Below, in pieces: positions 23,136 to 52,830 of a DNA stretch of 64,000 bases (the first letter of the stretch is position 1; the number at the start of each line of letters is the position of its first letter). The stretch covers positions 4,435 to 68,434 of the forward strand of contig MDLE01000007.1 in NCBI GenBank assembly GCA_001730065.1, given 5' to 3'. The notes under the pieces are model-generated. The model was not told the DNA's origin. It searched no databases and worked only from the letters and a program-made list of their open reading frames with translations. The position numbers and the translations under genes are program-made. The stretch is from Rickettsiales bacterium (ex Bugula neritina AB1) (GTDB taxonomy: Bacteria; Pseudomonadota; Alphaproteobacteria; CAJXXZ01; UBA1459).

Positions 23136-23418
23136 GCACTAAGTGCTATGGTAATAGATCTTAGTTTTGTAAAATTAAAAAGACCCGGGGGCGGTACCCG
23201 GCTTCTCCACTTATGGGGAAGAATAGTTATCGATTTTTAATGGAATAAACTAAGTTACCAGGTAGTAATTCTCCCTTAAAAAGAATTAAGAAAAACGTGC
23301 AAATAAAACAGAAAAATCTGTGTTTGAATTGTCAAATTTGTTACTAATAAATAGTAGTCCAATGACAGTTTGTATTTAATACAGGACAGTAGAATTAAAA
23401 ATTTTCTACTGTTTTTTT
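23136..23418 (+). ncRNA. ssrA: Circularly permuted (two-piece, alphaproteobacterial type) tmRNA gene: acceptor piece, 5-nt spacer, coding piece
   Basis: This is the most GC-rich patch in the window. The acceptor stem pairs 5' GGGGAAG (23215-23221) with CTTCTCC (23202-23208), giving G3:U70 and A73 (23209). The T-arm is CCGGG (23185-23189) / CCCGG (23197-23201). The 3' strand lies upstream of the 5' strand, which makes the gene permuted. A long-range helix joins CTTAGTTT (23160-23167) to AAACTAAG (23247-23254) and GGTAA (23150-23154) to TTACC (23255-23259). A candidate tag ORF runs from GCA at 23299 to TAA at 23377-23379. The outer boundaries are approximate. Confidence 0.7.
23386..23418 (+). 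terminator. Rho-independent-type hairpin plus T-run at the 3' end of the tmRNA coding piece
   Basis: ACAGTAGAA (23386-23394) pairs with TTCTACTGT (23404-23412), followed by a T tract. Confidence 0.55.
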
Positions 23419-28817: not shown

Positions 28818-29951
28818 GTGTGGCAACAAATTCGTAGAAAATCACAAATTCCTCCAAAAAGAAAATGGAGAGTATGGTGTATTTTAGCTGGTAGAGGTTT
28901 TGGAAAAACTCGTACAGGTGCAGAAACACTACAGGAGTTTATGACAAATGGTAAATATAAAAAAGCAGCAATTATTGGTGCATCTATTTTAGAAGTAATG
29001 AATATTATGTTATATGGTAATAGTGGTTTAATGACCATCAATCCAAAATTAAAATATATATCGAAAAATCACACTGTTGTATGGCCAAACAATAGTATTG
29101 GTATATGTTTTGGAGGTGAGTATTTTGATAAAATTCGTGGTTATGAATTTGATATTGTGTGGATTGATGAATTTGCAAAAATTAAAAATGCTAATTTATT
29201 ATGGGAACAAATTCAGTTTTCTCTTAGAATAGGTAATAATAATAAAATTATTATTACAACTACTCCTAGAAATATACAAATACTAAAAGATATTATTAGT
29301 TTACCGGATACATATCTAACAAATGGTAGTTCTTATGAAAATAAAAAAAATTTATCAAAAGATTTTTATAAAGCTATCAAACAATATGAAAATACAACAA
29401 TTGGTGATCAAGAAATTTACGGAAAAATTACTAATGATCATGTTTTATGGAATAAATCACATATTATTTATGATAACTCTAAAATTATAAAATATGTAAT
29501 TGGTGTAGATCCTGGTTTTCAAGGTAAAAGTGAAACAGGTATTATTTTAGCGGGTATGAGTATAGATAACAATTATTATATTTTAGAAGATTATTCAGGT
29601 TATTATAAACCTGATGAATGGACTTCTTTAATTGCTAAAATTGCTAATGAATATAAAGCAGAAATTATTTTAGAAGTAAATCAGGGTGGTAATTTTTTAT
29701 CTAATATACTTACAAGAGATATTAAAAATATAAAAATCCATGAAGTAAGAGCAACACAGAGTAAATATGAAAGAGCAATGCCTATATTCCTTTTATATAA
29801 TAAAAAACGTGTTTATCATAAAAAATTATTTCCATTATTAGAGGAACAAATGTTATATTTTACTCATAAAAAAGATAGATTAGATGCTTTAGTTTGGAGT
29901 GTTTATGGATTATATAAAAAAAAAACTTTAACAACTACTTTACTTTTTTAG
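28818..29951 (+). CDS. Phage/GTA-type terminase large subunit (RcGTA g2-like)
   Basis: [35 protein letters not shown] matches the conserved GTA TerL N-terminus (GRGxGKTRxGAE Walker A). It also has Walker [11 protein letters not shown] and nuclease-domain acidic residues ([14 protein letters not shown]). GTG start. Confidence 0.85.
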
Positions 29952-30417
29952 GATTCTTCTTATTAGAAATAATCAAATTACAATTTTCTTTTTCTAAAGC
30001 TATTTTAAGATTTTTAGATATATACTCACAAATTATTGTAAATGAATTAGTAATTTTCTCTTTTATATTACCAATAATTTTTACTTTGTTAAAAGCAAAA
30101 GGTTTTTTTATCATTTTTAAATTTAAAATTTTACTTGTAGTAATAATTTTATCTTTTCTAGCAAGTCTAATAATACGATTAATATCTATAGATAATATCT
30201 TGTGTTTTAAACGATTACTATTTGTAAAACCACGAATAGGCAGTGTTCTATAAAAGGGTGTTTGACCTCCTTCAAAACCAGGTCTTACACTTCCTTTTTG
30301 TTTTTGCCCTTTAGAACCTCTTGTAGATAAATCTCCACATCCACTACCTGTGCCTCTACCTTTACGACAAGAAGTTTTTTTATTTTTTGATCTTGTTAAA
30401 TTAGCGAGAAGTTGCAT
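29935..30417 (-). CDS. rplO: Ribosomal protein uL15
   Basis: GRGTGSGCG...[31 protein letters not shown]. Confidence 0.9.
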
Positions 30418-38916: not shown

Positions 38917-39372
38917 CTATTTTACCTTGCTACTACTAACTTTTTTTTTATTAGAAGATTGATTTTTTAACTTATTAGAATTTTTTAAAATATTATCTTG
39001 ATTATATTCTTTTAAATTATTTTTTTTTTTATTATTAATGGATATCATACGAATTTCTATACCATGACTAATATTCATATCAGATATAAACTGAATATTT
39101 TTTATATTTTCTCCTAAAGAATAAATATCTATAATACGACGATGTACTTTAATACAAAAATGTTCCATACTTGTTTTATAAACATGAGGAGATCTCAAAG
39201 CTAAAAACATTCTAGTACTATTCACTAAAGGTATAGGTCCTGCGTATTTCACCCCTAATTCGTCCATGTTTTTTGTAAGTTCCTTCAAAAATTTATCTAA
39301 TATCTTATAATCAAAAGAAGAAGCTACAAGACGTGTTTTTTTTTCTGTATTATTTTTTTTTTCTGTACTCAT
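38917..39372 (-). CDS. rpsJ: Ribosomal protein uS10 with about 40-aa N/K-rich C-terminal extension
   Basis: LRSPHVYKTSMEHFCIKVHRRIIDIY core; 151 aa against about 105 typical. Confidence 0.88.
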   Translation of the reverse strand: MSTEKKNNTEKKTRLVASSFDYKILDKFLKELTKNMDELGVKYAGPIPLVNSTRMFLALRSPHVYKTSMEHFCIKVHRRIIDIYSLGENIKNIQFISDMNISHGIEIRMISINNKKKNNLKEYNQDNILKNSNKLKNQSSNKKKVSSSKVK

Positions 39373-39383
39373 ATAAATACCAT

Positions 39384-40622
39384 TTAATTATTATCTTCAT
39401 TTGGCTTAAACACACCAATTGTTTGTTTACCATCTCTTAAAATAATTGGATTTACTGGTATCAATTTATCGGATTCCAACTCAATTACTGCAATATCACC
39501 AGGATAAATAAGTTTTTCTTCTAAACGAGGGCATTCTATAATATTTTTAATTGTGACAGCTGAAGCGGTAACACCTGAGTAACCATGGGGTCTATATCCA
39601 ACACCCACAGGATTTTTTCTCACATCTTCATAAAGATAAAAAGTACCTTTAAATTTATTGCTCAATTTTATTTCACCAAGTACTACACCTCTTGATAAAT
39701 CTTCCGGTTTTACACCCTTTAAAACAATACCGATGTTATCATCAGGATCAGCTTCTGAGACCTTGACTCTAAACTTTTCTATACTAAATACTGTTGCTTT
39801 TTTTTTTACACCTTTACGATCTATAAAAGGTATAACATCACCTACCTTTAATGTACCATTTTTTACTCTTGTAGTTACTACATAAAATTGAACTTTTTTA
39901 TTTTCACCAGAACCTACAAATATTGGAATTACTTCTTCAACAGTTGCGCAAAAAGGAAGTAATTTTCTTTCTTCTATGTTTTTTATAGGTAAAGTATCAA
40001 TTATTTCTAATAGAGAAATAATTGCTTTTCCTCCTAAATCCGTGTAATTTCCTGTAGAAGATTCCTTCAAAGCTTCTGTTGCAGAACAAAACACATATGG
40101 ACAATCATTATAACCATACTTTTCTAATACTTCATCTACTTCCATTTTTGCTACTTCAGCATTATCTAAACCATATAAATCACATTTATTTATAACAATA
40201 ATGACTTGACTAACACCAAGATTATTTAATAATTTAATATGTTCAAGAGTTTGAGGTTGTACACCATCTCCTGCACTTACTAATAAAATTGCTATTTGAA
40301 TGTTTGCAGCACCTGTAATCATATTTTTTACATAATCTGCGTGACCTGGACAATCTACATGTCCCAAAACACGGTGTTTTGTATGATACTCTATACAGGT
40401 TGAATTAATAGTAATACCTCTTTCTTTTTCTTCACGTGTTTTATCAATGTTATCTAGACCAATGAGAGTTTTTTTTTCTTGATCTTTATTTTTATAAATT
40501 GCGTCTGATATATTTTTTATGGCAGCTGTAAGAGTACTTTTACCATGATCTACATGACCTACAGTACCAACATTCACAAATACTTTTTTATTTTCTTCAA
40601 TATCTACATCTGTTTTTGACAT
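39384..40622 (-). CDS. tuf: Elongation factor Tu (divergent domains II/III)
   Basis: G domain VGTVGHVDHGKSTLTAAI, DCPGHADYVKNMITGAA, NKCD; positioned immediately upstream of rpsJ. Domain II/III hallmarks (GRGTVVTGRVERG, GGRHTPF, REGGRTVGAG) are not conserved. Confidence 0.85.
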   Translation of the reverse strand: MSKTDVDIEENKKVFVNVGTVGHVDHGKSTLTAAIKNISDAIYKNKDQEKKTLIGLDNIDKTREEKERGITINSTCIEYHTKHRVLGHVDCPGHADYVKNMITGAANIQIAILLVSAGDGVQPQTLEHIKLLNNLGVSQVIIVINKCDLYGLDNAEVAKMEVDEVLEKYGYNDCPYVFCSATEALKESSTGNYTDLGGKAIISLLEIIDTLPIKNIEERKLLPFCATVEEVIPIFVGSGENKKVQFYVVTTRVKNGTLKVGDVIPFIDRKGVKKKATVFSIEKFRVKVSEADPDDNIGIVLKGVKPEDLSRGVVLGEIKLSNKFKGTFYLYEDVRKNPVGVGYRPHGYSGVTASAVTIKNIIECPRLEEKLIYPGDIAVIELESDKLIPVNPIILRDGKQTIGVFKPNEDNN

Positions 40623-40745
40623 TTATTTATGATCCTTTCTTAATAATTTATACATTATATCTATATATATTTTTATCATAAAAGCTCATTAATTTCAAAT
40701 ATATTGTTGAAAGATTATTAATTATATAATAAAATTTTTTCATAT

Positions 40746-41789
40746 ATGCAAATATGTTATAAAAAATTGTTATTAGAATTCATAGTTGATATAGTTTTCT
40801 CTTTAATAAATTTGTACTTTTGGATTAATAAAAAAATTTCAAAAGAAAAAATAAAAAAATTTCTTTTTCATCATCATAAAAAAAATTTTACACCTAACAT
40901 GGGAGGTGTACCTATTCTAATAAGTCTAATACCTTCTTTATTGATATATAATAGTTGGTATGTTAACTTACTTTTAATTGGGAATTTCACTATCGGTTTA
41001 ATAGATGATCTTCTAAAAAATAAAAAAAATCTTAGTAATAATTACAAAATGATAATGTGGTGTTTATTTAATATCTTTGTTATGTATATCTATAAGATAT
41101 TTAATAATAGCATTATATGTTTACCATTCGGGTATTATGGAGATTTAGGATATATGTATATATTATTCACAAGTGTTTTTATTTTACTTACTATAAACGC
41201 TATTAATATTACTGATGGCCTTGATGGTTTAGCTACTTTTCCTGTAATTACAAACTGTATGTTTTTTATTTTGATTTCTTATTTACAAAATGATTATAAT
41301 ATACTTTATGTGACATTATCATTTTTAGGAGTTTTAATAAGTTTTTTATTTTTTAATATTTTTCCTGCAAAAATTTTTATGTCTGATTCTGGATCACTAT
41401 TATTAGGAAGTTTTATTGCGATATCATATATTCAAACAAAATCAGAATTTTTTATTTTTATTGTAGGTAGTGTATTTATTATAAATATTTTAACATCGTT
41501 TTTACAGGTAACTTCTTTACAATTTTTTAAATATAAGTTATTTAAAATTGCACCTTTACATCATTATTTAGAATTCCTTAAGTTTCAAGAATCAACTATT
41601 GTATTTTATGGTTGGTTATTAAGTTTATTTTCACTTTTAATAGGTGTTATGGGGTATCTATCCTATAAATCTTTTTTATATGAATCTTTATGGATAATTA
41701 ATTTTTTAAATTATATTACCATTGCTTTTATAATTTTTCTAGTTGTTTTATTTATTCTTTTAAAAATAAAAAAAAATAAAAAAAAATAA
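40746..41789 (+). CDS. mraY: Phospho-MurNAc-pentapeptide translocase
   Basis: TPNMGGV, LIDDL, INAINITDGLDGLA, multi-TM. Confidence 0.9.
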   Translation: MQICYKKLLLEFIVDIVFSLINLYFWINKKISKEKIKKFLFHHHKKNFTPNMGGVPILISLIPSLLIYNSWYVNLLLIGNFTIGLIDDLLKNKKNLSNNYKMIMWCLFNIFVMYIYKIFNNSIICLPFGYYGDLGYMYILFTSVFILLTINAINITDGLDGLATFPVITNCMFFILISYLQNDYNILYVTLSFLGVLISFLFFNIFPAKIFMSDSGSLLLGSFIAISYIQTKSEFFIFIVGSVFIINILTSFLQVTSLQFFKYKLFKIAPLHHYLEFLKFQESTIVFYGWLLSLFSLLIGVMGYLSYKSFLYESLWIINFLNYITIAFIIFLVVLFILLKIKKNKKK

Positions 41790-41849: not shown

Positions 41850-42851
41850 ATGTTTAATATATTCAATAAAAATTTTAAAAAAGAAGAAAAATCTAGTTTG
41901 TTTAAAACAAATATTAATTGGATTAATCCATCTATTGTTAGTTTAGAGGAAGCTTATTATAATAATCCAATAGTTTTTAGGTGTATTAATCTATTTATAG
42001 AATATTTACATCCTATTAATTTCATTTCTGAAAATAATATAATATCTAATTATTTAAAAAAAAATATAAAATACATTGCTCATAATTTATTAGTATATGG
42101 TAATTGTTTTATTCATAAAGATTTATTTTTTTTATCTCTATATGACCTTAAAATACTCACACACGAGAAAACAAATGAATTAATGGGGTATCGTTTAAAA
42201 GATAAAATTTACGATAAATCAGAAGTAATACATATTAAATATGATTTTAATTCTTATCGACTATATGGTGTTAGTCCTATACAAGTTGCTATGAAGTCTA
42301 TTAATTTGTATAATAATATTTTTGAATATTTAGTAACATTGGTACAAAGTGGTGGACGTCCTTCAGGTATATTATCTCATGAAGAAGTACTAACGGAACA
42401 AGAAAAAAATAAATTAAAACAAGATTTTAAAGATATTCATACAAATTTTGGACATAATGTTAGTCTTCTTATGACAGGTGGAAGTTTTAAATGGCAATCC
42501 ATTGGATGTGAGCCAGAAAAATTAGAATTACATCGTCGCCTAGATGAAACAATGCGAGATATTTCTACTGTATTTGGAATACCTACTATGTTATTGGGAG
42601 CAATTAGAGATAATCTTACATTTTCTAATTTTCAAATTGCTCGTGAATATATGTTAGAGGATATAGTTGCACCTTTTGTTCATAAAATAACCAATATTTT
42701 TGAAAGTTTTTTTTCAACAAATATAGATTTTTCTTGTGAGAATTTACAACAAATTGATAAACATAGTTGTAATTTAGAAAAAATCTTAACTATTAATGAA
42801 AGAAGAAGCTTATTTGGTTTTGCGTCAATATCTAATGGAGATAAAATGTGA
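41850..42851 (+). CDS. HK97-family phage/GTA portal protein (RcGTA g3-like), shortened (333 aa)
   Basis: Portal-family region GVSPIQVAMKSINLYNNIFEYLVTLVQSGGRPSGILS and ...FGIPTMLLG.... TGA stop overlaps the next start (GTGA). Confidence 0.8.
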   Translation: MFNIFNKNFKKEEKSSLFKTNINWINPSIVSLEEAYYNNPIVFRCINLFIEYLHPINFISENNIISNYLKKNIKYIAHNLLVYGNCFIHKDLFFLSLYDLKILTHEKTNELMGYRLKDKIYDKSEVIHIKYDFNSYRLYGVSPIQVAMKSINLYNNIFEYLVTLVQSGGRPSGILSHEEVLTEQEKNKLKQDFKDIHTNFGHNVSLLMTGGSFKWQSIGCEPEKLELHRRLDETMRDISTVFGIPTMLLGAIRDNLTFSNFQIAREYMLEDIVAPFVHKITNIFESFFSTNIDFSCENLQQIDKHSCNLEKILTINERRSLFGFASISNGDKM

Positions 42852-43207
42852 AGTATCAAGGTTATTGTATATATAATAATATAATAGATAAAGAAAACGA
42901 TACATTTTTACCAAATAGTCTTATTAGTAAACAAAATGTATCTATATTTTTAGAACATAATAAAAGTATTGGTGTTACTACTTCTATCAATGAAGATAAA
43001 AAAGGTATATTCATAAAATTTAACATTTTAAAAAAATATGAAATTTATGTAAAAAATCATCCATATCTTTCTATTGGTTTTGTTACTAATAAATTTCATA
43101 GAATTAATAATAATAGGTATATTATTGAGTTTAAATTAATAGAAATATCAATTGTAAAATTTCCTGTACAGGAAAATACAAAGTTTTTTTTTGAAAAAAA
43201 TTTATGA
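42848..43207 (+). CDS. HK97-family prohead protease (RcGTA g4-like), miniaturised (119 aa)
   Basis: YQGYCIYNNIIDKENDTFLPNSL (GYAS-type N-terminus), FLEHNKSIGV (candidate catalytic His), YLSIGFV (candidate catalytic Ser), EISIVKFPVQENT. GTG start coupled to the portal stop. Confidence 0.7.
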   Translation: MKYQGYCIYNNIIDKENDTFLPNSLISKQNVSIFLEHNKSIGVTTSINEDKKGIFIKFNILKKYEIYVKNHPYLSIGFVTNKFHRINNNRYIIEFKLIEISIVKFPVQENTKFFFEKNL

Positions 43208-43288
43208 TTTAATAAAATTGTTATTTTTTTATTTATATTACTTGATTTTTTTTTTTATAAATGTAATAATAATAATTATTAATATTCA

Positions 43289-43345
43289 ATTGTCATTTTT
43301 AAATATAATAGTAATGAATTAAAAATTCATAAATATTCAGACAAT
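43289..43345 (+). promoter_or_regulatory. Nested stem-loop in the rplJ leader (candidate L10 autoregulatory leader)
   Basis: ATTGTC (43289-43294) pairs with GACAAT (43340-43345) and encloses the hairpin ATGAATT (43314-43320) / AATTCAT (43324-43330). It lies about 27 nt upstream of the rplJ GTG, with GGAG at 43359-43362. Confidence 0.3.
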
Positions 43346-43371
43346 AGAATTTATAAATGGAGTGGTAATAA

Positions 43372-43914
43372 GTGACATTAAGATGTAAAAAAATTAACGA
43401 AAGAAAAGTACATTCTATTGACAAGTTACATTCCGCCTATGCATCAATACAAAAATCTCAAAAAAAAGATTCAGGAGTTATTATTCTTCAATATTTATCA
43501 CTACCAAACTCTTTAATGAACATATTAAGAAAGAGTTTATGGGATTATGGTAAATTAGTTTTTTTAAAAAATACTTTATTTAAGGTTTTTTTAAAAAATT
43601 ATGAATTACCAATAACAAAAGAATTTTTAGATGATATGTATGGATATAATATGGTATTTTTTGGAAACAATTTTTTACAATCAAATCATGAAATTCATAA
43701 AATTATGAAAAATAATCAAAATATTTCTGAGAGATTAGTGATATCTTGTGGTACATTAAATAATGAATTTTTTTCTTCTTCAAAAATGAACGAAATAAGG
43801 AAATATTCTAATGTGGCGGATGTTGTATCTGTATTAGTAGGATTGTTAAGAGTACAACAAATTCAAATTATTAAAATACTAATGGAAATAGAAAAGATAA
43901 AGACCAATAAATAG
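43372..43914 (+). CDS. rplJ: Ribosomal protein uL10
   Basis: GTG start after GGAG; L10 pattern (VIILQYLSLPNSLMNILRKSL...VFLKNTL); sits immediately upstream of rplL. Confidence 0.85.
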   Translation: MTLRCKKINERKVHSIDKLHSAYASIQKSQKKDSGVIILQYLSLPNSLMNILRKSLWDYGKLVFLKNTLFKVFLKNYELPITKEFLDDMYGYNMVFFGNNFLQSNHEIHKIMKNNQNISERLVISCGTLNNEFFSSSKMNEIRKYSNVADVVSVLVGLLRVQQIQIIKILMEIEKIKTNK

Positions 43915-43923
43915 GAGAAATAT

Positions 43924-44340
43924 ATGAGTAAAAAAATAGAAGATATTATTGCAGCAATTATGTCTGCTAGTACAGAAGAAATGTTAAAAATTATTGAGAG
44001 TTTAAAGGAAAAATTTGGTATTTCTAGCGAAGCTCTTATGGCTACAAATAATAGTAATAGTAGTAATGATAATAAACAATCAGCAGAAGAGGAAGAATCT
44101 GCTGTTTATTCTATAACATGTAATGGATTAGTTGGTGATATTGATCAATTAAAAGTACTAAAAGTTATTAAAGAATTTAATGGTATGGGATATGTAGATA
44201 TAAAAACCAATATTATAGAAAAAGTAAAAAAAGGTGATTCAGTAGTTATTAAAGAAGGTTTAGATCTAAATGAATCAAAAAAAATCTCTGAAACTTTAAC
44301 GGGATTAAATTTAAAAGTAGAATTTAAAAAACAATCTTAA
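43924..44340 (+). CDS. rplL: Ribosomal protein bL12 (L7/L12)
   Basis: N-terminal dimerisation helix, an acidic/Asn hinge, and a C-terminal domain (KVLKVIKEFNGMGYVDIKTNIIE...KEGL...). Confidence 0.9.
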   Translation: MSKKIEDIIAAIMSASTEEMLKIIESLKEKFGISSEALMATNNSNSSNDNKQSAEEEESAVYSITCNGLVGDIDQLKVLKVIKEFNGMGYVDIKTNIIEKVKKGDSVVIKEGLDLNESKKISETLTGLNLKVEFKKQS

Positions 44341-44400: not shown

Positions 44401-47400
44401 ATGCAAAATAAAAATAAACTTAAAAGTATGTCTCGTACTTTAAAAAGAGAAATAGTAAGAAGAGTTTTTGCAAGAAAAGAGTGGTCATTACAGGAACTTC
44501 CTGGGGTTTTAGACTTTCAGTTGGATAGTTTTAAAAAATTTATTGATAAAGAATTAAACAATAAAATTAGTCTTCACAATCTTTTTAAAGAATCTTTTCC
44601 GATTGTAGATTTAAATAATCGTATAAAAATAGAGTATATTGATTATAAATTACAGGATTCTATTTTTTCACCTCAAGAATGTAGAAACAGGGGTGCTACT
44701 TATGTAAAGAAAATTTTTCTGAAATTACGTATCATTGGTGAGGTTTCTAGTAGTCCTATGAAAAATAATAATGAAGAATTAGATGAGGAAGAAAATAATA
44801 TTACTTCTGAAAAGAATTCATCTACAAAACAGGTTTTTAAAGAAGATTGGTTTTATACAGGTAATTTACCATTAATGACAGACACTTGTAATTTTATTAT
44901 TAATGGTAATGAAAAATATGTAGTATCTCAGTTAAAAAGATGCCCTGGTCCTTTTTTTTGTAAAGGAATTGATGTAACTTCTAATACCCATGATTATTTT
45001 ATTAAATTAATTCCACTAATAGGTTCTTGGATTGAATTTATTATTGATAAAAATGATACTATAGTTGTTAAAATTGATAAGAAAAAAAAAATATTATTTT
45101 CAACATTTTTAATGTGTTTTGAAAATCCTGAAGATACTAATGCATCTTTATTTGATAAAGAAAGTATTTTATCTAATTTTTATAAAAATTGTTCCTTAAA
45201 GTTTACGGATGACTATGAATATCTTAAATTACCTAATAAATTAGAATTTTTTTTAGGAAAAAGTTTTAATTGTGATATATGGAATTCTACAAAAAAAAAA
45301 ATTTTATTTCCTGCGAAAGTTATTATTTCTGAAGAAGAGTTTTATAAAAATGAAAAAGATTCTTTTGTGGCACCTATATCTATATTAAAAGATTGTATAT
45401 CTGCTAGTTATATTGTGAATAATACTACTGGTGAAATATACACGGAAGCGGGAGATAGTTTTTCTGAAAAAGTTATAATTGATAAAGTCTTTAAGACAGA
45501 AAAAATAAAAGAAGTATCTATTTTATTAATAGGAAATCAAAGAGAGGATATGTTTGTTTTAAACACTATCCAAAAAGATAATCATTGTAATAGACCTGAG
45601 GCTTTAAACAACTGGGGAAGGGTTTTTAAATATAGTGAATATCTAAATTTTGATGGATTAGTAAAATACTTTAAAGACAACTATGAAAGTAATAAGTTTT
45701 ATGATTTATCTAAAATAGGTAGATATCGTCTAAATCAAAAAATCCTTAGTATTAAAAAATATAAAAATATTTTTGGAGATTTTGATGATTGCGAAGAATC
45801 TTCTTCTACTTTTCTTAGAACGCAAGATATTATTAGAATGGTACAGTCTTTAATTTTATTATACAAAGGCTATTTTAAAGAAGATGATATGGATGATTAT
45901 ACAAACAGAAGAGTAAGACCTGTAGGTGAATTATTTAATTATTGTATTAAAATAGGAATAGATAAATTAAAGAAAAAATTTAATAGTAAATATATTATTC
46001 TTACGGAAGAAAATCTTAAAAATCTTGATTTTTTTAATATTCGTAGTATCCTATATACATTATTAGATTTTTTAAATACTTCTCAATTATGTCAATTTGC
46101 GGATCAAAATAATCCTTTGTCAAAAATTTCTCATAGTAGAAAATTATCTAATTTTGGACCTGGTGGTATTTTAAAAGATCGAGTACCTGATTCTTTAAGA
46201 TCTATTAGTCATACACAAATTGGTCGTGTATGTGCTATAGAAACACCGGAGGGACAAAAAATAGGTTTAGTGACTTTTTTATCATCTCATGCAAAGATTG
46301 ATGATAATGGTTTTTTAATGGCACCTTATTATTCCGTAAAAAATGGTATTGCAGATACTTCAAAAGTTGTATACTTAACGGCTTTTGAAGAAGAAGAAAA
46401 AGTAATTGCAGAAAAAATTTTTTTTCATTACGATAAAAACCACCAATTAGTGATTAAGGATAATGACATTTATGCTAGAAAAGGTAATGTATATACATAT
46501 TTTTCTAAAGATCAAATTAATTTTGTAGAAGTATCACCTTTACAATTTGTTTCTTTATCTGTTGCGCTTATAGTTTTTTTGTCTCATAATGACTCTTATC
46601 GTATATTAATGTCAGGAAATATGGCTAAACAAGCACTTCCACTATTAGTAGGTAAAGCACCTAATATTGCTACAGGTTTTGAAAAAAAAATCGCTGAATC
46701 ATCTAAAGAGATTATTACTGCTCACACCGCCGGAGTTGTAAGGATGGTAGATAGTCGTCGTATTGTTGTAGAATCTTTAGATCCTATTAGTCAGCTACCA
46801 AAAATTGACATTTATGAATTAAGTAAGTATACACGTACTAATCAAGATACTTGTAGTAATCAAAAACCTATTGTACAAATTGGAGATAATATATCTGTTG
46901 GAAGTATTTTAGCGGATGGTTATGGTACCTATAAAGGTGAATTAGCGTTAGGTAATGATTTTACAGTATTATATAGATCTTGTGCGGATTGTTTTGAAGA
47001 TGCTATTTTAGTAAATAGTAGTACTATTGAAAATGACTCTTTTACATCTATTAATGTTATTGAATTAGAGTGTATTGCAAAAGATACAAGATTTGGTGTA
47101 GAAGAAATTTCTCGTGATTTACAATATTTTGGTAATACAGATTTATCACATCTTGATGAATTTGGTATTGTTACGGTAGGAACTAATGTACGTCCTGGTA
47201 TGATATTAGTTGGTAAAATAACTCCTAGAAGTGAAGGTAACACAGATCTGCAACATAAATTATTACAGGTAATTTTTGCGGATAAAAGTAGTAATTACAA
47301 GGATACATCTTTAAGGGTTCCTCCTGCTATTTATGGTACCGTAACACGTGTTGAGATTTTTACTAGATCAGGAGTAGAATTTGATGGAAGTGCTTTAACG

Positions 47401-50400
47401 GTTTTAAAAAATAAAATAGATTTTGAGGTAAAAAAGCTTAATAATACTATTTATATTTTAATGGATTTTTTAAGAGAAAAGGTATTTAGTCTTTTAAAAA
47501 ACAATGAGATACAAGAGAGTATTGGTGGTATAGAAAAAAAACAAAAAATAACTGATAACCATTTTAGTAAATTTAAACTTTTACAGCTAGAACAATTATT
47601 TCGTATTAAAATACTTGATAAGTCTTTACAAAGTAGAATTATTAAGATTATAGAAGAAATAGAAAAACAAATTAAAGAACAAAAAACTGAACATAAAAAA
47701 ACATTAGAGGCAATAAAAACTGAGTATAAATTTCCTGATGAAAGTACTACAAAGATTATAAAAGTTTATATTTCTCATAAAAACACAATAGAATCTGGTA
47801 ATAAATTATGTTCTCGTTATGGTAATAAAGGTGTTGTTTCTCGTGTTTTAAATAAAGTAGATATGCCTTATTTAGAAGATGGTACAATTATAGATATTGT
47901 ATTTAATCCTTTAGGTATATTAGCTCGTATGAACTTAGGGCAAATTTTTGAAACTACTATGAATTTATGTTTAGAAAAAATACGTAAAAATATTTCTAAT
48001 AAATTAAAGAAGTTTTTAAAAAACAATAGTGATGAAAATTTACAACAATTACAGGATGCTATGATAGATGGTATTGGTGAAGAAGATGTAAATAAGTTTT
48101 TTATGAATACAAATGAATACATTAGTATTTTTCAACTAAACATTAATGAAATAATTGCATTAGCAACAAAACTATCGGAAGGTATTTTTTGTTTAATGCC
48201 TCCTTTTGAAAGTATTTCTTTTGAGGAAATAAAAAATTTATTAAAGAAATATGAACTACCAGAAGATGGTAAGTTACCTGTATATGATGGACAAACAGGG
48301 GAATTAATTAAAAATACACTGTTAGTAGGTCGTCAATTTGTTTTAAAACTTACTCATGTAGTTGTATCAAAAATGCACGCTCGTTCTATAGGACCTTATT
48401 TAGAACAAACACAACAACCTTCTTGTGGTAAAAAGAAAACAGGTGGGCAAAAAATAGGTGAAATGGAGAATTGGAGTATTGCCGCTCATGGTGCTGCTCA
48501 TATCTTATATGAAAACAATGTTAAATCTGATAATATAAAAAAACGTCAAGAATATTTTCGAAAACTATCTTCTCAAGGTATAGTATTAACTACTTCTGAG
48601 TATATAAAAAAAGAAATCAAAAATTACTTTATTAATAGTGATACAGAAGAATATAAATATACGGAACCATGTTTTGATGTCGTAAAAGAAATGTTTTATG
48701 CTTGTGGTTTTAAAGTTGTCAATTCATGGGTACGTGAAAGTAATATTATTGGTGAAAAACCTTTAGATTTTACAAGTCTAGTTGATATTTTAGATAATCA
48801 AGAAGAAGTAGATGAATTAGTGGTGGAAGAAATAGATGCAAAAAATAAAATGTTATATTATGTGAATAATAAAATTCCTTCTTATCGTAGATCTATTAAA
48901 TTTGTATTATTGAATCCAAATGATATATTAAAAAGTTGTCATGGGGAAGTAAAAAAAACGGAAACTATAAATTATAGATCTAACAATCCAGAAATAGGAG
49001 GTTTATTTTGTCCTCAAATCTTTGGTCCACATGTTAGTTATCAGTGTTTATGTGGTCGTTATAATCAAAGCAGGTATGTTAATTTAAAGTGTGAAAAATG
49101 TGGTGTAACAGTATTACATGAAACGGAACGTAGAAAAAGACGTGGATATGTTAAATTAAACCATGAAATTTTTCACCCCTTTTATTTAAAACCTAATAAT
49201 AATAAAATTTGTATATTATTAGATATTAACTTTACGGAATTAAAACAACTAAAGAATCTTGAGTCTTATATTGTTTTTGATGGAAAAGATACAAAATATA
49301 AATATCTTGATATAATATCTCGTGATGAATATCTTGAATTAAAAAAAAGTCATAATATTACTGCTAAAACAGGTGCAAAAGCCGTAAAAGAAATTTTTGA
49401 AAGTATGAATTTAGAAATAGAACAAGAAAAAATTCAAGAACAAATTAATAATATATCTTCACAGACTTCAAAAGATACTTTATATAAAAAACTATCATTA
49501 ATAAAAACTATGATACATAATAAAATACGTCCTGAATGGATGATTTTAGAATATCTTGTTATATTACCTTGTGGATTAAGAAAGTTTGTAGAAATTGCTC
49601 CAAATGAATATGCTTGTCCAGATATTAATACTTTATATAAAGAAATTATTGGTAAAAATAATCGTTTAAAAATTTTTCAAGAAATTGAAGCTACTATTGC
49701 TATACATGATAACGAAGTACGTATGTTACAAACGGCTATAGAAGAATTATTTAATAAGCATGAAAAATATAAATCTTTATTGGATTTTTTACAGGGTAAA
49801 TATGGTTTATTACGTCAAAACCTTTTAGGTAAACGTGTAGATTATTCAGGTCGTTCTGTTATAGTAGTAGCACCTAATGCAGGAATTGATGAATGTTATA
49901 TTCCTCGTGAAATGTTAATTGTTTTGTTAAAGCCACATATGCATTTTATGTTACAAAAACGTGGTATTACAAGTAATTGGAATGAAGCGCAAAAAATACT
50001 TGAAGATATACAAAATCCAAAAATTTGGGATATATTGATAGATTTAGTGGAAGAGTATGTACCTTATTATATATTAAATCGCGCACCAAGTTTGCATAAA
50101 TTAAGTATGTTAGCCTTTAAAATAAAAGTATGGGACAAAAGAACTATAGGTTTAAACCCTTTAGTTTGTAAAGGTTTTAACGCGGATTTTGATGGTGATC
50201 AAATGGCTATACACGTACCTTTATCTATAGAAGCGCAATTAGAAGCTAAAGAATTAATGATTGCTTCTAAAAATATTTATTCAAACACAAATGGTGATTT
50301 AATGATATTACCTTCTCAAGATATTTCTTTTGGTTTGTATTTATTAACAAAAAATAATGAAAAAATTAAAAGTAACTTTGTTAAATTCTTTAACATTTGG

Positions 50401-52830
50401 GAAATACATCATGCTTTAAATAAAAAAATAATAGATATACAAGATACAATTTTATTTTATTATGAACAAAAATTTATAGAAACTACTGCAGGACGTGTTA
50501 TATTATGGCAGTATATTCCAAAACACCCTAAGATTAAATTTTCATTTATAAATAAAAATATAACAAATAAATTTGTACAAGAAATCCTTAAATTAGTACG
50601 TAGATATGTTAGCGATAAAGCAACTTTACAATTAGCATGTGATATAAAAGATTTAGGTTTTAAATATGTAGAGTATTTTGGTGTATCTTTTAGTATTGAA
50701 GATTTTGTAGAATTAGAAGAAATAAATACTATAAAAAATGAAGGTGATCATAAACAAAAAGAATATGATGATTATTATAAAGCTGGTTTGATGGATGAAA
50801 AAACTCGTGAAAAAAAGATTACAGAACATTGGTTGCAGTTGTCGCAAACTAGTAAAGAACATTTATTAAAAATAGTTAATAATAATTCTAACAACCCTGT
50901 GTTTGCTTCTATTAATTCAGGAGCAAGAGGTTCTATAATTCAATTATTGCAAATAGTAGCTTTTAAAGGTTTTGTTACAAAATTAGATGGTAGTTTATCA
51001 AGTTTCCCTATTACAAGAAATTATAAAGAAGGATTATTTGGATATCAAGTCTTTGCTTCCTCAACGGGAGCTATTGTTTCTGGATCTACAATTTCTATTA
51101 AAACATCCACTGCAGGATATTTTACAAGAAAATTAATTGAAATTTCTCATGCAGTTACGGTTACAAATCATGATTGTAATACAAAAGAATCCTTAGAAGT
51201 AAAAAATAAAATAAGTAGTGGTGGTATTATATCTACTATTTACGAACAAATTCTTGGTAGAGTAATTGCAGAAGATTTAATAAATCCTAATAATAATGAG
51301 TTATTAATAAAACGTAATCACTTAGTAACGGATGATGATATTGATTTACTACAATCTATTGGTATTGTTTCCTGTAAAATAAGATCACCAACATTATGTA
51401 AGTCTCGTACGGGTGTATGTAGATTATGTTATGGAACTGATTTATCCACAAATAATTTAGTAAATGAAGGAACAGCTGTAGGTATTATAGCTAGTCAATC
51501 TATTGGTGAACCAGGTACACAGTTAACAATGCATGCTAAACACTTTGGTGGAGTATCCCAAAAAGAGTTAATGACAACAAAAATTTATGCATCTTTTAAC
51601 GGAGTATTAGAATTTGTACGTATTAAAACCGTAAAAATTGATAAAGAAAATGTTGTATTTAGTCGTGGTGGAAAAATACGTATTTTAAATAATTTAAATG
51701 TACAAGTAGCAGAATATTCTATACCTTATGGTACTACATTAAAACATAAGAATAATAATAAAATTACAAAAGGTGAATTAATAGCAGAATGGGATATATT
51801 TCAACCTATTTTTGCGGAAGTGGAAGGTATTTGTAGATATCAAAATCTTATAGATAAAATTACCTATGATGTGATATATGATGAAGTATCAGGAATAACG
51901 GAAAAAATTGTAAGATTAGGGGAAAATAGAAAATATACAATTATTCCTGCATTAGTTATTTATGATAAGAGTGGTAAAGAAGTAAATAAATACATATTAG
52001 AAGAAAATACAGTAATAGAAGTAGAAGACGGAGAAGAAGTTTCAGAAACAACAAGAATTGCTAAAGTACAAAATAAAATTTATGATAATGTTAGTATAAC
52101 GGAAGGTTTACCAAAAGTTATCTGTTTGTTTGAAAATAGATCACCATCTATTAATGCATTAATTGCTTCACACTCAGGTACTGTAGATATTATAAAAAAT
52201 AATAAAAATAGAACTATTATAAAAATTACGAATAATAAAACTGATGAAGTATCAGAATATACATTAGGTAAACATAATCGTACAATTGTTCAAAATCGTG
52301 AAGAGGTAGATAAAGGGGATATATTAACTACTGGTACGCCATTATTAAATGACATGTTAAATGTTAAAGGTTTAAAAGGATTTATTGAATATTTTATTAA
52401 TGAAGTAAATGGTATTTATAATGCACATGGAATAAAAATTAATTATAAACATTTTGAAATTATTTTATCAAAACTTATATCTAAAGTAGAAATTATTGAC
52501 ACAGGTGATTCTAATATATTTACTAAAGGTGACATAGCAGATATAGGAGATGTAGAAGAAATGAATTTATCTTTAAATAATCCTATAAAATACAAACACG
52601 TATTTATGGGGCTTACAAATATGGCTTTAAAAAATAAATCATTATTAGCAAGTGTGTCTTTCCAAGAAACAACTCGTGTGATGGCAAATAGCTTATCCAC
52701 ATATGTTATGGGATCTACTGTTGGTTTTAAGGAAGATTTAATGTTAGGAAAAATACCTAATTTAGGTACTGGTGCAGTTGTAAAAAAAATTTTTGATATA
52801 GTTGTAGAAAATCTAAATAAATTAAAATAG
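44401..52830 (+). CDS. rpoBC: Fused RNA polymerase beta-beta' subunit (single 2809-aa ORF)
   Basis: Beta motifs (SQLCQFADQNNPLS, NMAKQALP, GNKGVVSRV, GGQKIGEMENW) run without a stop into beta' motifs (Zn CLCGRYN...CEKCG, YSGRSVIVV, NRAPSLHKLSM, catalytic NADFDGDQMAIH, GEPGTQLTM). The linker is at about 48715-48900. Confidence 0.95.
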   Translation: MQNKNKLKSMSRTLKREIVRRVFARKEWSLQELPGVLDFQLDSFKKFIDKELNNKISLHNLFKESFPIVDLNNRIKIEYIDYKLQDSIFSPQECRNRGATYVKKIFLKLRIIGEVSSSPMKNNNEELDEEENNITSEKNSSTKQVFKEDWFYTGNLPLMTDTCNFIINGNEKYVVSQLKRCPGPFFCKGIDVTSNTHDYFIKLIPLIGSWIEFIIDKNDTIVVKIDKKKKILFSTFLMCFENPEDTNASLFDKESILSNFYKNCSLKFTDDYEYLKLPNKLEFFLGKSFNCDIWNSTKKKILFPAKVIISEEEFYKNEKDSFVAPISILKDCISASYIVNNTTGEIYTEAGDSFSEKVIIDKVFKTEKIKEVSILLIGNQREDMFVLNTIQKDNHCNRPEALNNWGRVFKYSEYLNFDGLVKYFKDNYESNKFYDLSKIGRYRLNQKILSIKKYKNIFGDFDDCEESSSTFLRTQDIIRMVQSLILLYKGYFKEDDMDDYTNRRVRPVGELFNYCIKIGIDKLKKKFNSKYIILTEENLKNLDFFNIRSILYTLLDFLNTSQLCQFADQNNPLSKISHSRKLSNFGPGGILKDRVPDSLRSISHTQIGRVCAIETPEGQKIGLVTFLSSHAKIDDNGFLMAPYYSVKNGIADTSKVVYLTAFEEEEKVIAEKIFFHYDKNHQLVIKDNDIYARKGNVYTYFSKDQINFVEVSPLQFVSLSVALIVFLSHNDSYRILMSGNMAKQALPLLVGKAPNIATGFEKKIAESSKEIITAHTAGVVRMVDSRRIVVESLDPISQLPKIDIYELSKYTRTNQDTCSNQKPIVQIGDNISVGSILADGYGTYKGELALGNDFTVLYRSCADCFEDAILVNSSTIENDSFTSINVIELECIAKDTRFGVEEISRDLQYFGNTDLSHLDEFGIVTVGTNVRPGMILVGKITPRSEGNTDLQHKLLQVIFADKSSNYKDTSLRVPPAIYGTVTRVEIFTRSGVEFDGSALTVLKNKIDFEVKKLNNTIYILMDFLREKVFSLLKNNEIQESIGGIEKKQKITDNHFSKFKLLQLEQLFRIKILDKSLQSRIIKIIEEIEKQIKEQKTEHKKTLEAIKTEYKFPDESTTKIIKVYISHKNTIESGNKLCSRYGNKGVVSRVLNKVDMPYLEDGTIIDIVFNPLGILARMNLGQIFETTMNLCLEKIRKNISNKLKKFLKNNSDENLQQLQDAMIDGIGEEDVNKFFMNTNEYISIFQLNINEIIALATKLSEGIFCLMPPFESISFEEIKNLLKKYELPEDGKLPVYDGQTGELIKNTLLVGRQFVLKLTHVVVSKMHARSIGPYLEQTQQPSCGKKKTGGQKIGEMENWSIAAHGAAHILYENNVKSDNIKKRQEYFRKLSSQGIVLTTSEYIKKEIKNYFINSDTEEYKYTEPCFDVVKEMFYACGFKVVNSWVRESNIIGEKPLDFTSLVDILDNQEEVDELVVEEIDAKNKMLYYVNNKIPSYRRSIKFVLLNPNDILKSCHGEVKKTETINYRSNNPEIGGLFCPQIFGPHVSYQCLCGRYNQSRYVNLKCEKCGVTVLHETERRKRRGYVKLNHEIFHPFYLKPNNNKICILLDINFTELKQLKNLESYIVFDGKDTKYKYLDIISRDEYLELKKSHNITAKTGAKAVKEIFESMNLEIEQEKIQEQINNISSQTSKDTLYKKLSLIKTMIHNKIRPEWMILEYLVILPCGLRKFVEIAPNEYACPDINTLYKEIIGKNNRLKIFQEIEATIAIHDNEVRMLQTAIEELFNKHEKYKSLLDFLQGKYGLLRQNLLGKRVDYSGRSVIVVAPNAGIDECYIPREMLIVLLKPHMHFMLQKRGITSNWNEAQKILEDIQNPKIWDILIDLVEEYVPYYILNRAPSLHKLSMLAFKIKVWDKRTIGLNPLVCKGFNADFDGDQMAIHVPLSIEAQLEAKELMIASKNIYSNTNGDLMILPSQDISFGLYLLTKNNEKIKSNFVKFFNIWEIHHALNKKIIDIQDTILFYYEQKFIETTAGRVILWQYIPKHPKIKFSFINKNITNKFVQEILKLVRRYVSDKATLQLACDIKDLGFKYVEYFGVSFSIEDFVELEEINTIKNEGDHKQKEYDDYYKAGLMDEKTREKKITEHWLQLSQTSKEHLLKIVNNNSNNPVFASINSGARGSIIQLLQIVAFKGFVTKLDGSLSSFPITRNYKEGLFGYQVFASSTGAIVSGSTISIKTSTAGYFTRKLIEISHAVTVTNHDCNTKESLEVKNKISSGGIISTIYEQILGRVIAEDLINPNNNELLIKRNHLVTDDDIDLLQSIGIVSCKIRSPTLCKSRTGVCRLCYGTDLSTNNLVNEGTAVGIIASQSIGEPGTQLTMHAKHFGGVSQKELMTTKIYASFNGVLEFVRIKTVKIDKENVVFSRGGKIRILNNLNVQVAEYSIPYGTTLKHKNNNKITKGELIAEWDIFQPIFAEVEGICRYQNLIDKITYDVIYDEVSGITEKIVRLGENRKYTIIPALVIYDKSGKEVNKYILEENTVIEVEDGEEVSETTRIAKVQNKIYDNVSITEGLPKVICLFENRSPSINALIASHSGTVDIIKNNKNRTIIKITNNKTDEVSEYTLGKHNRTIVQNREEVDKGDILTTGTPLLNDMLNVKGLKGFIEYFINEVNGIYNAHGIKINYKHFEIILSKLISKVEIIDTGDSNIFTKGDIADIGDVEEMNLSLNNPIKYKHVFMGLTNMALKNKSLLASVSFQETTRVMANSLSTYVMGSTVGFKEDLMLGKIPNLGTGAVVKKIFDIVVENLNKLK

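What the first reader, a model, noticed from the sequence alone, without database searches (positions are those of the whole stretch)
41850..43207. Translationally coupled portal plus miniaturised prohead protease inserted where rplK-rplA normally precede rplJ; no capsid gene follows
An HK97/GTA-type portal (333 aa) and a 119-aa prohead protease are coupled through a GTGA overlap. The protease still has the candidate catalytic His (LEHNKS) and Ser (LSIGF). The pair sits directly upstream of rplJ-rplL-rpoBC. In canonical GTA and HK97 modules the protease is followed by its substrate, the major capsid protein, but here the next gene is rplJ. Both proteins are shorter than typical homologues. The terminase lies 12 kb away, so the head-assembly module is dispersed yet retained.
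Basis: partly seen in the sequence, partly recalled or inferred. Interest (0 to 1): 0.55.

Follow-up and report, generated by a model that had tools for sequence, protein, structure and literature searches.

The report
GTA portal–protease remnant beside rplJ
A tiny bacterial endosymbiont genome (from the bryozoan Bugula neritina) still carries intact, selection-maintained copies of a virus-derived portal and a stripped-down head-maturation protease, a known pattern of "gene transfer agent" head genes scattered through reduced alphaproteobacterial symbiont genomes, here split from the capsid gene they normally precede.

Summary
Window 41850-42851 encodes a 333-aa HK97/RcGTA-type portal (PF04860, E=1.6e-32; best PDB match is the RcGTA portal). 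Window 42848-43207 encodes a 119-aa Peptidase_S78 prohead protease (E=4.4e-7, above Pfam's cutoff). They are joined by a GTGA overlap that is an ATGA overlap in the closest relative. The protease's His37 and Ser75 align with HK97 gp4 His65 and Ser114 and are invariant in 54 homologues. An AF2 model (pLDDT 97) has the assemblin / T4 gp21 fold. A complete TerL lies at 28818-29951. No capsid gene or relic exists anywhere in the 64-kb window.

The interpretation needs correction. This is not an insertion: GC3 matches host genes, and the genes sit among rearranged ribosomal operons. The organism is the AB1_rickettsiales MAG (436 kb). Dispersed GTA head genes under purifying selection are already described in Rickettsiales and Holosporaceae (Shakya 2017; George 2022). 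More distant relatives keep a portal–protease–capsid trio; another lineage has the capsid detached. The 117-126-aa protease is a clade trait, not unique. Whether this genome has a capsid gene elsewhere is unresolved: none was found, but the MAG is a low-coverage draft. Verdict: a new member of a known kind, of modest interest.

The parts
41850..42851 (+). RcGTA/HK97-type portal protein gene (333 aa; AB836_01925, OED45345.1, deposited as 'hypothetical protein')
   Evidence: PF04860 E=1.6e-32. phrog_12 portal 1.3e-30. Best PDB sequence hit is the RcGTA portal Rcc01684 (6TE8/6TBA), E=6e-12. The AF2 model (pLDDT 64.6) has its top Foldseek hit on 6TBA, with 350 alignment columns (gaps included) against the 360-residue chain. 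TIGR01537 scores 76 bits, below its 112-bit cutoff. NG86 dN/dS against L008 is 0.20.
42848..43207 (+). Minimal Peptidase_S78 prohead (head-maturation) serine protease gene (119 aa, GTG start; AB836_01930, OED45346.1)
   Evidence: PF04586 E=4.4e-7, 30.6 bits against a cutoff of 21, covering profile positions 34-151 of 165. phrog_80 6.6e-7. His37 and Ser75 align with HK97 gp4 His65 and Ser114 and are invariant in 54 homologues. AF2 pLDDT is 97.1. Foldseek hits herpesvirus assemblins (1AT3, E=1.4e-4) and T4 gp21 (5JBL), TM about 0.6 normalised to the query. dN/dS against L008 is 0.32.
42848..42851 (+). GTGA start/stop overlap (translational coupling junction)
   Evidence: Read directly from the sequence. 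The homologous junction in L008 is ATGA. L007 also overlaps by 4 nt, 9026-9029.
42837..42840 (+). GGAG Shine-Dalgarno-like motif inside the portal 3' end, 7 nt upstream of the protease GTG
   Evidence: Read directly from the sequence. The same GGAG lies at the same distance in L008. Its function as a ribosome-binding site is inferred.
28818..29951 (+). Detached GTA-type large terminase (TerL, 377 aa), convergent with rplO and overlapping its 3' end by 17 nt
   Evidence: Terminase_6N 4e-19 plus Terminase_6C 1.8e-5. phrog_2 2.3e-21. 34% identical over the full length to the TerL of a canonical terminase-portal-protease-capsid cluster in MAG L014. Walker A (GRGFGKT) and Walker B (VWIDEF) are readable in the translation.
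43208..43371 (.). 164-bp AT-rich spacer (GC 11.6%) between the protease and rplJ, at the position where relatives have the capsid gene
   Evidence: No capsid similarity. No terminator-like site on the + strand. GC.
43372..44340 (+). rplJ-rplL (context; followed by the fused rpoBC at 44401-52830)
   Evidence: PF00466 1.3e-8 for rplJ; weak L12 N- and C-terminal domain hits for rplL. ORF list.
40746..41789 (+). mraY (context; co-oriented upstream neighbour, 60-bp spacer)
   Evidence: PF00953 1.2e-29.

Best explanation
These are two chromosomal, long-resident genes of an RcGTA-like gene-transfer-agent head module: g3 portal and g4 prohead protease. They sit in the extremely reduced, roughly 21% GC genome of the AB1_rickettsiales symbiont of Bugula neritina. 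Together with the detached large terminase (g2 homologue) they are kept intact by purifying selection, as in other Rickettsiales and Holosporaceae endosymbionts. Inferred mechanism: portal and protease are translated as a coupled pair (GTGA overlap plus an internal GGAG). The protease is a minimal assemblin-fold Ser/His enzyme. It has lost the first N-terminal strand and the long C-terminal tail of HK97 gp4, and it processes an HK97-fold capsid protein during prohead assembly. TerL then packages DNA through the portal. The capsid gene, adjacent in more distant relatives, has been separated by the rearrangements that scrambled this genome. It most probably lies outside the window, on another contig or in an assembly gap. 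The position upstream of rplJ is a by-product of rearrangement, not a targeted insertion. It may nevertheless place the pair in the same transcription unit as rplJL-rpoBC.
For: Identity: for the portal and for the protease. Organism: locus tags AB836_01925/01930, Rickettsiales bacterium ex Bugula neritina AB1; alpha-type tmRNA; MAG of 8 contigs, 436 kb, 21.6% GC (PMC5041132). Long residence: GC3 0.08-0.11, the same as host genes. Selection: dN/dS 0.20 (portal) and 0.32 (protease) against the 68%/57%-identical pair in L008. The coupling junction and GGAG are conserved in L008. Relatives at 38-41% portal identity carry portal (342-343 aa), protease (134-145 aa) and capsid (318-324 aa) embedded among housekeeping genes. 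A further lineage has the capsid alone, next to UDG/FtsJ/nrdB, so detachment of the capsid occurs in this group. Ehrlichia also has a solitary capsid next to a dapA-like ORF (my reading of the translation). TerL is intact, with both domains. Published pattern: only small clusters or singletons of RcGTA genes in Rickettsiales, with unconserved flanks (PMC5721377); head genes retained, TerL often a singleton, dN/dS below 1, transcripts detected (PMC9254644). The short protease is a family trait: the closest full-length phmmer hits are all 117-126 aa.
Against: No capsid gene was found for this organism. There is none in the 64-kb window. No AB836-named protein appeared among the hits of a capsid-profile search of 5.8 billion proteins, although AB836 proteins are in that database. 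The pattern-based genome scan did not return this genome. The HK97 C-terminal tail is, from my own knowledge of Duda et al. 2013, the part that targets the protease into proheads; it is absent here, so how this mini-protease would be encapsidated is unknown. No expression or particle data exist for this organism, and TEM failed to show particles even in the better-studied diplonemid symbionts (PMC9254644). dS is about 1.0, near saturation, and the dN/dS is a pairwise average, so relaxed selection specifically on the AB836 branch cannot be excluded. Portal and protease both score below NCBIfam's equivalog cutoffs.
Confidence: 0.78

Rival explanations
1. Decaying relic. The capsid gene has been lost from this genome. 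Portal, protease and TerL are still-intact but functionless leftovers, on their way to pseudogenisation in a genome under strong reductive drift.
For: No capsid was detected for this organism. All three proteins are shorter than their RcGTA and HK97 homologues. Protease dN/dS (0.32) is higher than the portal's. Both score below NCBIfam cutoffs.
Against: In a 436-kb genome, useless ORFs are deleted quickly. All three ORFs are uninterrupted. The catalytic His/Ser and 10 other core residues are invariant. The AF2 model is extremely confident. The coupling junction is conserved with L008. dN/dS is well below 1. The short lengths are shared with relatives that do have a capsid gene.
Confidence: 0.1
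2. Capsid-independent repurposing. The portal (a dodecameric channel) and the mini-protease, possibly with the TerL ATPase, have been co-opted for a cellular role such as a host-interaction or secretion/processing device, and are co-expressed with rplJL-rpoBC.
For: No capsid was found. The pair is co-oriented with mraY and rplJ-rplL-rpoBC, with no terminator-like site between them. George et al. raise repurposing as a possibility for symbiont GTAs (PMC9254644). The protease lacks the region that in HK97 tethers it to the capsid (plus own knowledge).
Against: There is no precedent for a portal or S78 protease working without an HK97-fold shell. The same mini-protease and portal forms occur with an adjacent capsid gene in relatives. 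Absence of the capsid is only absence from a 2.3x-coverage draft. The promoter and terminator scans are uninformative at 20% GC.
Confidence: 0.08
3. Fragment of a recently integrated HK97-like prophage (a true insertion between rplA and rplJ).
For: The genes are phage hallmark genes.
Against: There is no integrase, tail, lysis or other phage gene in the window. Base composition and GC3 are identical to host genes. No flanking tRNA or repeat was noted. The best structural and sequence relatives are the RcGTA portal and symbiont chromosomal genes, not phages. The same genes occur in different chromosomal contexts in related symbionts.
Confidence: 0.02

Closest known systems
GTA 'small clusters' / head-only GTA gene sets of Rickettsiales and Holosporaceae endosymbionts (Lang & Beatty 2007; Shakya et al. 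2017, PMC5721377; Christensen & Serbus 2020; George et al. 2022, PMC9254644)
   Same: Chromosomal, host-like composition. The genes are TerL, portal, S78 protease (and capsid), with no tail genes nearby. TerL is a detached singleton. Flanking genes are not conserved. dN/dS is below 1. The host is an obligate symbiont with a highly reduced genome.
   Different: The portal-protease pair is separated from the capsid gene, which is not found in the available data. The genome is among the smallest (436 kb) and most AT-rich. The proteins are at the short extreme: portal 333 aa, protease 119 aa, TerL 377 aa. The pair lies directly upstream of rplJ-rplL-rpoBC.
Rhodobacter capsulatus GTA (RcGTA) head module g2-g5 (structures 6TBA/6TE8)
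   Same: The portal is the best PDB match by both sequence (E=6e-12) and fold. The gene order portal then protease is kept. TerL is 34% identical to the TerL of an RcGTA-like large cluster (L014).
   Different: RcGTA-like large clusters have about 15-17 contiguous genes including the capsid and tail; here there are only 2 plus 1 dispersed genes. The portal is 333 aa against 396. Relatives' capsids are 318-324 aa against 389 aa in L014, and match only from position 129-147 onward of the 385-position TIGR01554 profile, so most of the N-terminal scaffold region has no counterpart.
Phage HK97 gp3 portal / gp4 maturation protease (Peptidase S78; assemblin fold shared with herpesvirus proteases and T4 gp21)
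   Same: The catalytic His and Ser align (His37=His65, Ser75=Ser114). The conserved GY...D...D, EH..IG, LSxGF and ExS motifs are present. The predicted fold matches.
   Different: 119 aa against 225 aa. About 23 N-terminal residues (first strand) and about 80 C-terminal residues of gp4 are missing. No adjacent gp5-type capsid gene. Chromosomal, not viral.

Membership tests
Phage_portal (Pfam PF04860, HK97-type portal) | Score above Pfam's gathering threshold across the portal core | tested here: met
   113.4 bits against a cutoff of 39.1; residues 73-306 match profile positions 55-297 of 321.
Phage_portal (Pfam PF04860, HK97-type portal) | Portal fold comparable with a solved HK97/GTA portal | tested here: met
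   AF2 model (moderate, pLDDT 64.6). Top Foldseek hits are RcGTA 6TBA (E=1e-11, 350 alignment columns against a 360-residue chain) and HK97 8CEZ.
NCBIfam TIGR01537 portal_HK97 (equivalog) | Score at or above the curated cutoff (112.05 bits) | tested here: not met
   76.3 bits. It is a divergent member, which fits the deposited name 'hypothetical protein'.
Peptidase_S78 (Pfam PF04586, caudovirus prohead serine protease) | Score above the gathering threshold | tested here: met
   30.6 bits against a cutoff of 21; profile positions 34-151 of 165.
Peptidase_S78 (Pfam PF04586, caudovirus prohead serine protease) | Catalytic His and Ser (HK97 gp4 His65/Ser114; the residue assignment is from my own knowledge of Duda et al. 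2013, and that paper could not be opened) | tested here: met
   Window His37 and Ser75 fall in the same alignment columns as HK97 His65 and Ser114. Both are invariant in 54 homologues.
Peptidase_S78 (Pfam PF04586, caudovirus prohead serine protease) | Assemblin / prohead-protease fold | tested here: met
   AF2 pLDDT 97.1. Foldseek hits herpesvirus proteases (E=1.4e-4 to 1e-2, prob 1.00) and T4 gp21 5JBL (TMq 0.63).
Peptidase_S78 (Pfam PF04586, caudovirus prohead serine protease) | Proteolytic activity on a capsid precursor | not testable with these tools
   Needs biochemistry, and the substrate gene has not been identified in this genome.
NCBIfam TIGR01543 proheadase_HK97 (equivalog) | Score at or above the curated cutoff (59 bits) | tested here: not met
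   24.7 bits. The relative L005, which has an adjacent capsid gene, also fails at 28.4 bits.
RcGTA-like GTA head module (symbiont 'small cluster' type) | TerL, portal and prohead protease homologues that are chromosomal, with host-like composition and not within a prophage | tested here: met
   No other phage gene was found among the ORFs of 90 aa or more that were profiled.
RcGTA-like GTA head module (symbiont 'small cluster' type) | HK97-fold major capsid gene (g5 homologue) present | tested here: not met
   Absent from the window. Not recovered for this organism in the protein-database or genome scans. This is inconclusive for the whole genome, because the MAG is an 8-contig, 2.3x-coverage draft.
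RcGTA-like GTA head module (symbiont 'small cluster' type) | Purifying selection on the head genes | tested here: met
   NG86 dN/dS of 0.20 (portal) and 0.32 (protease) against L008, with dS about 1.0, near saturation. This is within the published 0.04-0.60 range for head domains (PMC9254644).
RcGTA-like GTA head module (symbiont 'small cluster' type) | Production of particles that package DNA | not testable with these tools
   No data for this organism. Particles were also not seen in the diplonemid symbionts (PMC9254644).

The most novel reading that the evidence does not exclude
The 436-kb AB1_rickettsiales genome truly lacks any HK97-fold capsid gene, yet keeps a translationally coupled portal and minimal S78 protease (plus TerL) under purifying selection, embedded in the rplJL-rpoBC transcription unit. 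That would make it a capsid-independent, domesticated use of phage portal and protease proteins. Its 117-119-aa enzyme would be the smallest assemblin-fold protease I am aware of, now acting on a cellular or host substrate.
Probability: 0.08. Interest if true: 0.7.

Novelty: new member of a known kind. Interest (0 to 1): 0.3.

Why it matters
It adds one more very small genome (436 kb, about 21% GC) to the list of obligate symbionts that keep GTA head genes. This strengthens the puzzle raised by George et al. 2022: why do organisms that discard almost everything keep a phage head-assembly and packaging kit? Two details could be useful to specialists. First, the whole module is miniaturised in this clade. 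The protease is reduced to a 117-126-aa catalytic core without the HK97-type C-terminal tail, and relatives' capsids lack most of the scaffold domain. That gives a natural minimal system for studying assemblin-fold proteases and prohead assembly. Second, the portal-protease pair can be uncoupled from the capsid gene. If a closed genome showed no capsid at all, the case for a non-capsid function would become testable. As it stands, nothing here overturns current understanding.

Tried and rejected
1. Capsid gene or relic in the window. tblastn with three relatives' capsids and hmmsearch --max with two capsid profiles against all stop-to-stop six-frame pieces found nothing better than E=0.35 (tblastn) or 0.6 (profile).

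2. Capsid elsewhere in this genome. A profile search of 5.8 billion proteins returned 10 capsids, none named AB836. The three unnamed NCBI-source hits were checked: P0014 and P0016 trace to other assemblies (GCA_041443045.1, GCA_040384225.1), and P0017 was not traced to an assembly. The genome-contig scan returned only Ehrlichia mineirensis and one MAG. That method depends on two exact peptide patterns, so the negative is weak.

3. The NCBI contig (83.8 kb) could not be reached beyond the window. Only a 1-kb Logan contig holds the exact protease.

4. The metagenome scan with the portal profile gave one further relative (L016, a truncated contig). The other 79 loci are marine phage-like loci with 650-800-aa portal-containing ORFs, which are not informative here.

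5. The PDB sequence search with the protease found nothing. Only the fold search worked.

6. The promoter and terminator scan is uninformative at 20% GC, with fewer promoter-like hits than in shuffles.

7. Literature confirmation of HK97 His65/Ser114 failed: the Duda 2013 paper is not held. The residue numbers therefore rest on my own knowledge plus the alignment.

8. The prophage/insertion reading was rejected on composition and context.

9. An L11/L1/NusG motif search of the window was negative, and Pfam on the remaining mid-size ORFs found no L11 or L1. So rplK and rplA are simply elsewhere, and no footprint of a displacement is visible.

Full report
**Observation**

ORF 41850-42851 (+) starts at ATG and encodes 333 aa. 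ORF 42848-43207 (+) starts at GTG and encodes 119 aa.

The junction reads ...GAT AAA ATG TGA. The GTG at 42848-42850 uses the last base of the portal's final codon and the first two bases of its stop, giving a 4-nt GTGA overlap. A GGAG lies 7 nt upstream of the GTG.

Pfam assigns the first protein to Phage_portal (E=1.6e-32, 113 bits against a 39-bit cutoff). It assigns the second to Peptidase_S78 (E=4.4e-7, 30.6 bits against a 21-bit cutoff, profile positions 34-151 of 165). PHROGs gives portal and head-maturation protease. Both fall below NCBIfam's stricter equivalog cutoffs (TIGR01537 76 against 112 bits; TIGR01543 25 against 59 bits). That fits their deposition as 'hypothetical protein' AB836_01925 and AB836_01930.

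**Source organism**

The window comes from 'Rickettsiales bacterium (ex Bugula neritina AB1)'. This is the AB1_rickettsiales bin of Miller et al. 2016: 8 contigs, 436 kb, 21.6% GC, 2.3x coverage and 48.9% of generic markers (PMC5041132). The window agrees with that description. It has about 22% GC, an alpha-type permuted tmRNA and a fused rpoBC ORF of 2809 aa.

**The portal**

The best sequence match among solved structures is the RcGTA portal Rcc01684 (6TE8/6TBA, E=6e-12), followed by the HK97 portal. An AF2 model from a shallow alignment (pLDDT 64.6) has its best Foldseek hit on the same GTA portal. That alignment spans 350 columns against the 360-residue modelled chain. The 333-aa protein is therefore a compact but complete portal core.

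**The protease**

I aligned it with 15 homologues and HK97 gp4, taken from NC_002167. Window His37 (in FLEHNKS) and Ser75 (in LSIGF) fall in the same columns as HK97 His65 and Ser114. By my own knowledge of Duda et al. 2013 these are the catalytic residues; the paper itself could not be opened.

Twelve positions are invariant in that alignment: G5, Y6, D14, D18, H37, G42, G53, S75, G77, R90, E99 and S101. The His and Ser remain invariant across 54 sequences.

Compared with gp4 (225 aa), the protein starts about 23 residues later and ends about 80 residues earlier. AF2 with the 54-sequence alignment gives pLDDT 97.1. Foldseek retrieves herpesvirus assemblins (1AT3, E=1.4e-4) and T4 gp21 (5JBL), with query-normalised TM of about 0.6. 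It is a minimal but well-formed assemblin-fold Ser/His protease.

An exhaustive phmmer search of 1.84 billion representatives found 65 homologues. Apart from one 706-aa repetitive protein, the closest seven are all 117-126 aa. The small size is therefore a trait of a clade, not an oddity of this locus.

**Context**

Upstream on the + strand is mraY (PF00953). Further left, tuf, rpsJ and the S10/spc operon run on the minus strand. Downstream are rplJ, rplL and the fused rpoBC.

No ORF in the window has the L11, L1 or NusG hallmark motifs or Pfam hits, so rplK and rplA lie elsewhere.

A 377-aa large terminase with both ATPase and nuclease domains lies at 28818-29951. It sits where secY would normally follow rplO, and it is convergent with rplO, overlapping it by 17 nt. 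It is 34% identical over its full length to the TerL of a canonical terminase-portal-protease-capsid-tail cluster in a Pseudomonadota MAG (L014).

No other phage-like gene was found among the ORFs that were profiled.

GC3 of the portal (0.108), protease (0.083) and TerL (0.103) cannot be told apart from housekeeping genes at 0.08-0.16. These are old residents of a thoroughly rearranged genome, not an insertion.

**Relatives**

The closest relative is a 1.9-kb contig, L008. Its portal is 68% identical and its protease (117 aa) 57% identical. It keeps the same junction as ATGA and the same GGAG, but it is flanked upstream by apparent tRNA-like sequence (by eye; not scanned) rather than mraY. Downstream, after 69 nt, a new ORF begins (MQDIIENTTNLTYE...) that is not rplJ and might be the capsid.

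Three more distant lineages have portals 38-41% identical (L001-4, L005/6, L007). All carry portal (342-343 aa), protease (134-145 aa) and capsid (318-324 aa, PF05065) in a row, embedded among different housekeeping genes.

Those capsids match the HK97 capsid model only from profile position 129-147 onward. They therefore lack most of the N-terminal scaffold (delta) region, so the whole module is miniaturised.

In another lineage (P0014/P0015/P0016) the capsid gene stands alone next to UDG, FtsJ and nrdB. In Ehrlichia mineirensis a solitary capsid follows a dapA-like ORF, as I read the translation. Separation of the capsid gene from portal and protease therefore does occur in this group.

**Selection**

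Nei-Gojobori estimates against L008 give dN/dS of 0.20 for the portal and 0.32 for the protease, with dS about 1.0, near saturation. These values fall within the 0.04-0.60 published for symbiont GTA head domains (PMC9254644).

**The missing capsid**

There is no capsid or relic in the window. A capsid-profile search of 5.8 billion proteins includes this MAG's deposited proteins. It returned ten capsids, with identity to the query down to 31%, and none was named AB836.

The pattern-based scan of GTDB representative genomes did not return this genome, but that method is insensitive.

The MAG is a low-coverage 8-contig draft, and I could not read beyond the window. Absence from the genome is therefore not established.

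An intact TerL, portal and protease under purifying selection make biological sense only with a shell. I therefore judge that the capsid gene lies elsewhere or was not assembled (probability about 0.8). The alternatives are a decaying remnant (about 0.1) or a capsid-independent co-option (about 0.08).

**Comparison with what is known**

Shakya et al. 2017 showed that Rickettsiales and Rhodospirillales carry only small clusters of RcGTA homologues, mostly singletons, with unconserved flanks (PMC5721377).

George et al. 2022 showed that TerL, portal, protease, capsid and adaptor are widely retained in the most reduced Rickettsiales and Holosporaceae symbionts. TerL is often detached, selection is purifying, and transcripts are present, but no particles were seen (PMC9254644).

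The present locus is another instance. Its particular features are an unusually small genome, very short proteins, a capsid gene separated from the pair, and a position immediately upstream of rplJL-rpoBC.

**Verdict**

The 'insertion' reading and the implied uniqueness are not. The locus is a new member of a known kind, with interest of about 0.3. The residual novel reading, a truly capsid-less domesticated portal/protease, has low probability and can be tested directly by completing the genome.

Noticed in passing
window 44401-52830 (+): rpoB and rpoC are fused into one uninterrupted 2809-aa ORF. From my own knowledge such fusions occur in Wolbachia and Helicobacter. It may be phylogenetically informative for this 'basal Rickettsiales' MAG.
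   Followed up: no
window 28818-29951 (+) / 29935-30417 (-): The spc operon ends at what I read as rplO (no Pfam hit at E<=0.001). Instead of secY-adk, the next gene is the GTA-type terminase on the opposite strand. The two genes converge and overlap by 17 nt.
   Followed up: partly
window 4416-4850 and 4825-5421 (+): Two consecutive, overlapping dUTPase-like ORFs. The first hits PF00692 at 5e-10. The second has an N/R-rich N-terminal extension and reads as a dUTPase by eye, but was not profiled. This could be a duplication or a split/degenerate copy next to nrdB.
   Followed up: partly
window 38917-39372 (-): rpsJ (S10) is 151 aa. It has a C-terminal tail of about 45 aa rich in K, N and S beyond the Pfam S10 domain (residues 15-108).
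   Followed up: partly
window 20557-23052 (-) and 52833-55220 (-): Two large ORFs (831 and 795 aa) rich in N, K and I. Neither had a PHROGs hit at E<=0.001 (they were not run against Pfam). The 795-aa one appears, by eye, to have hydrophobic segments. They may be lineage-specific surface or effector proteins of the symbiont.
   Followed up: partly
window 23136-23327 (+): Alpha-proteobacterial permuted (two-piece) tmRNA (RF01849 at 72 bits; RF04321 at 71 bits).
   Followed up: no
window 39384-41789: tuf directly precedes rpsJ on the minus strand, but rpsL-rpsG-fusA are not upstream of it. mraY on the + strand takes that place. This is part of the general scrambling of the ribosomal-protein superoperons.
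   Followed up: partly
L001/L005/L007 capsid genes; P0014-P0016: Capsid proteins of the related symbiont lineages are only 312-324 aa. Two of them (P0014 and the L005 capsid) were scored against the HK97 capsid profile and align only from position 129-147 of 385, so most of the delta/scaffold domain is missing. This parallels the loss of the protease's C-terminal tail and suggests co-miniaturisation of protease and substrate.
   Followed up: partly
L017-L095 (marine metagenome contigs): The portal profile pulled about 79 marine contigs (TARA and others) with 650-800-aa ORFs containing a portal domain. Many also have an S78 protease ORF of about 290 aa and a capsid gene, usually several kb downstream. 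This is a different, apparently phage-like group.
   Followed up: no
L014 2790-7500: Pseudomonadota MAG J06632_8 carries a canonical RcGTA-like large cluster: TerL, a 379-aa portal, a small ORF, a protease of about 200 aa, a 389-aa capsid, then a run of downstream co-oriented ORFs (not profiled). It served as a size reference.
   Followed up: partly
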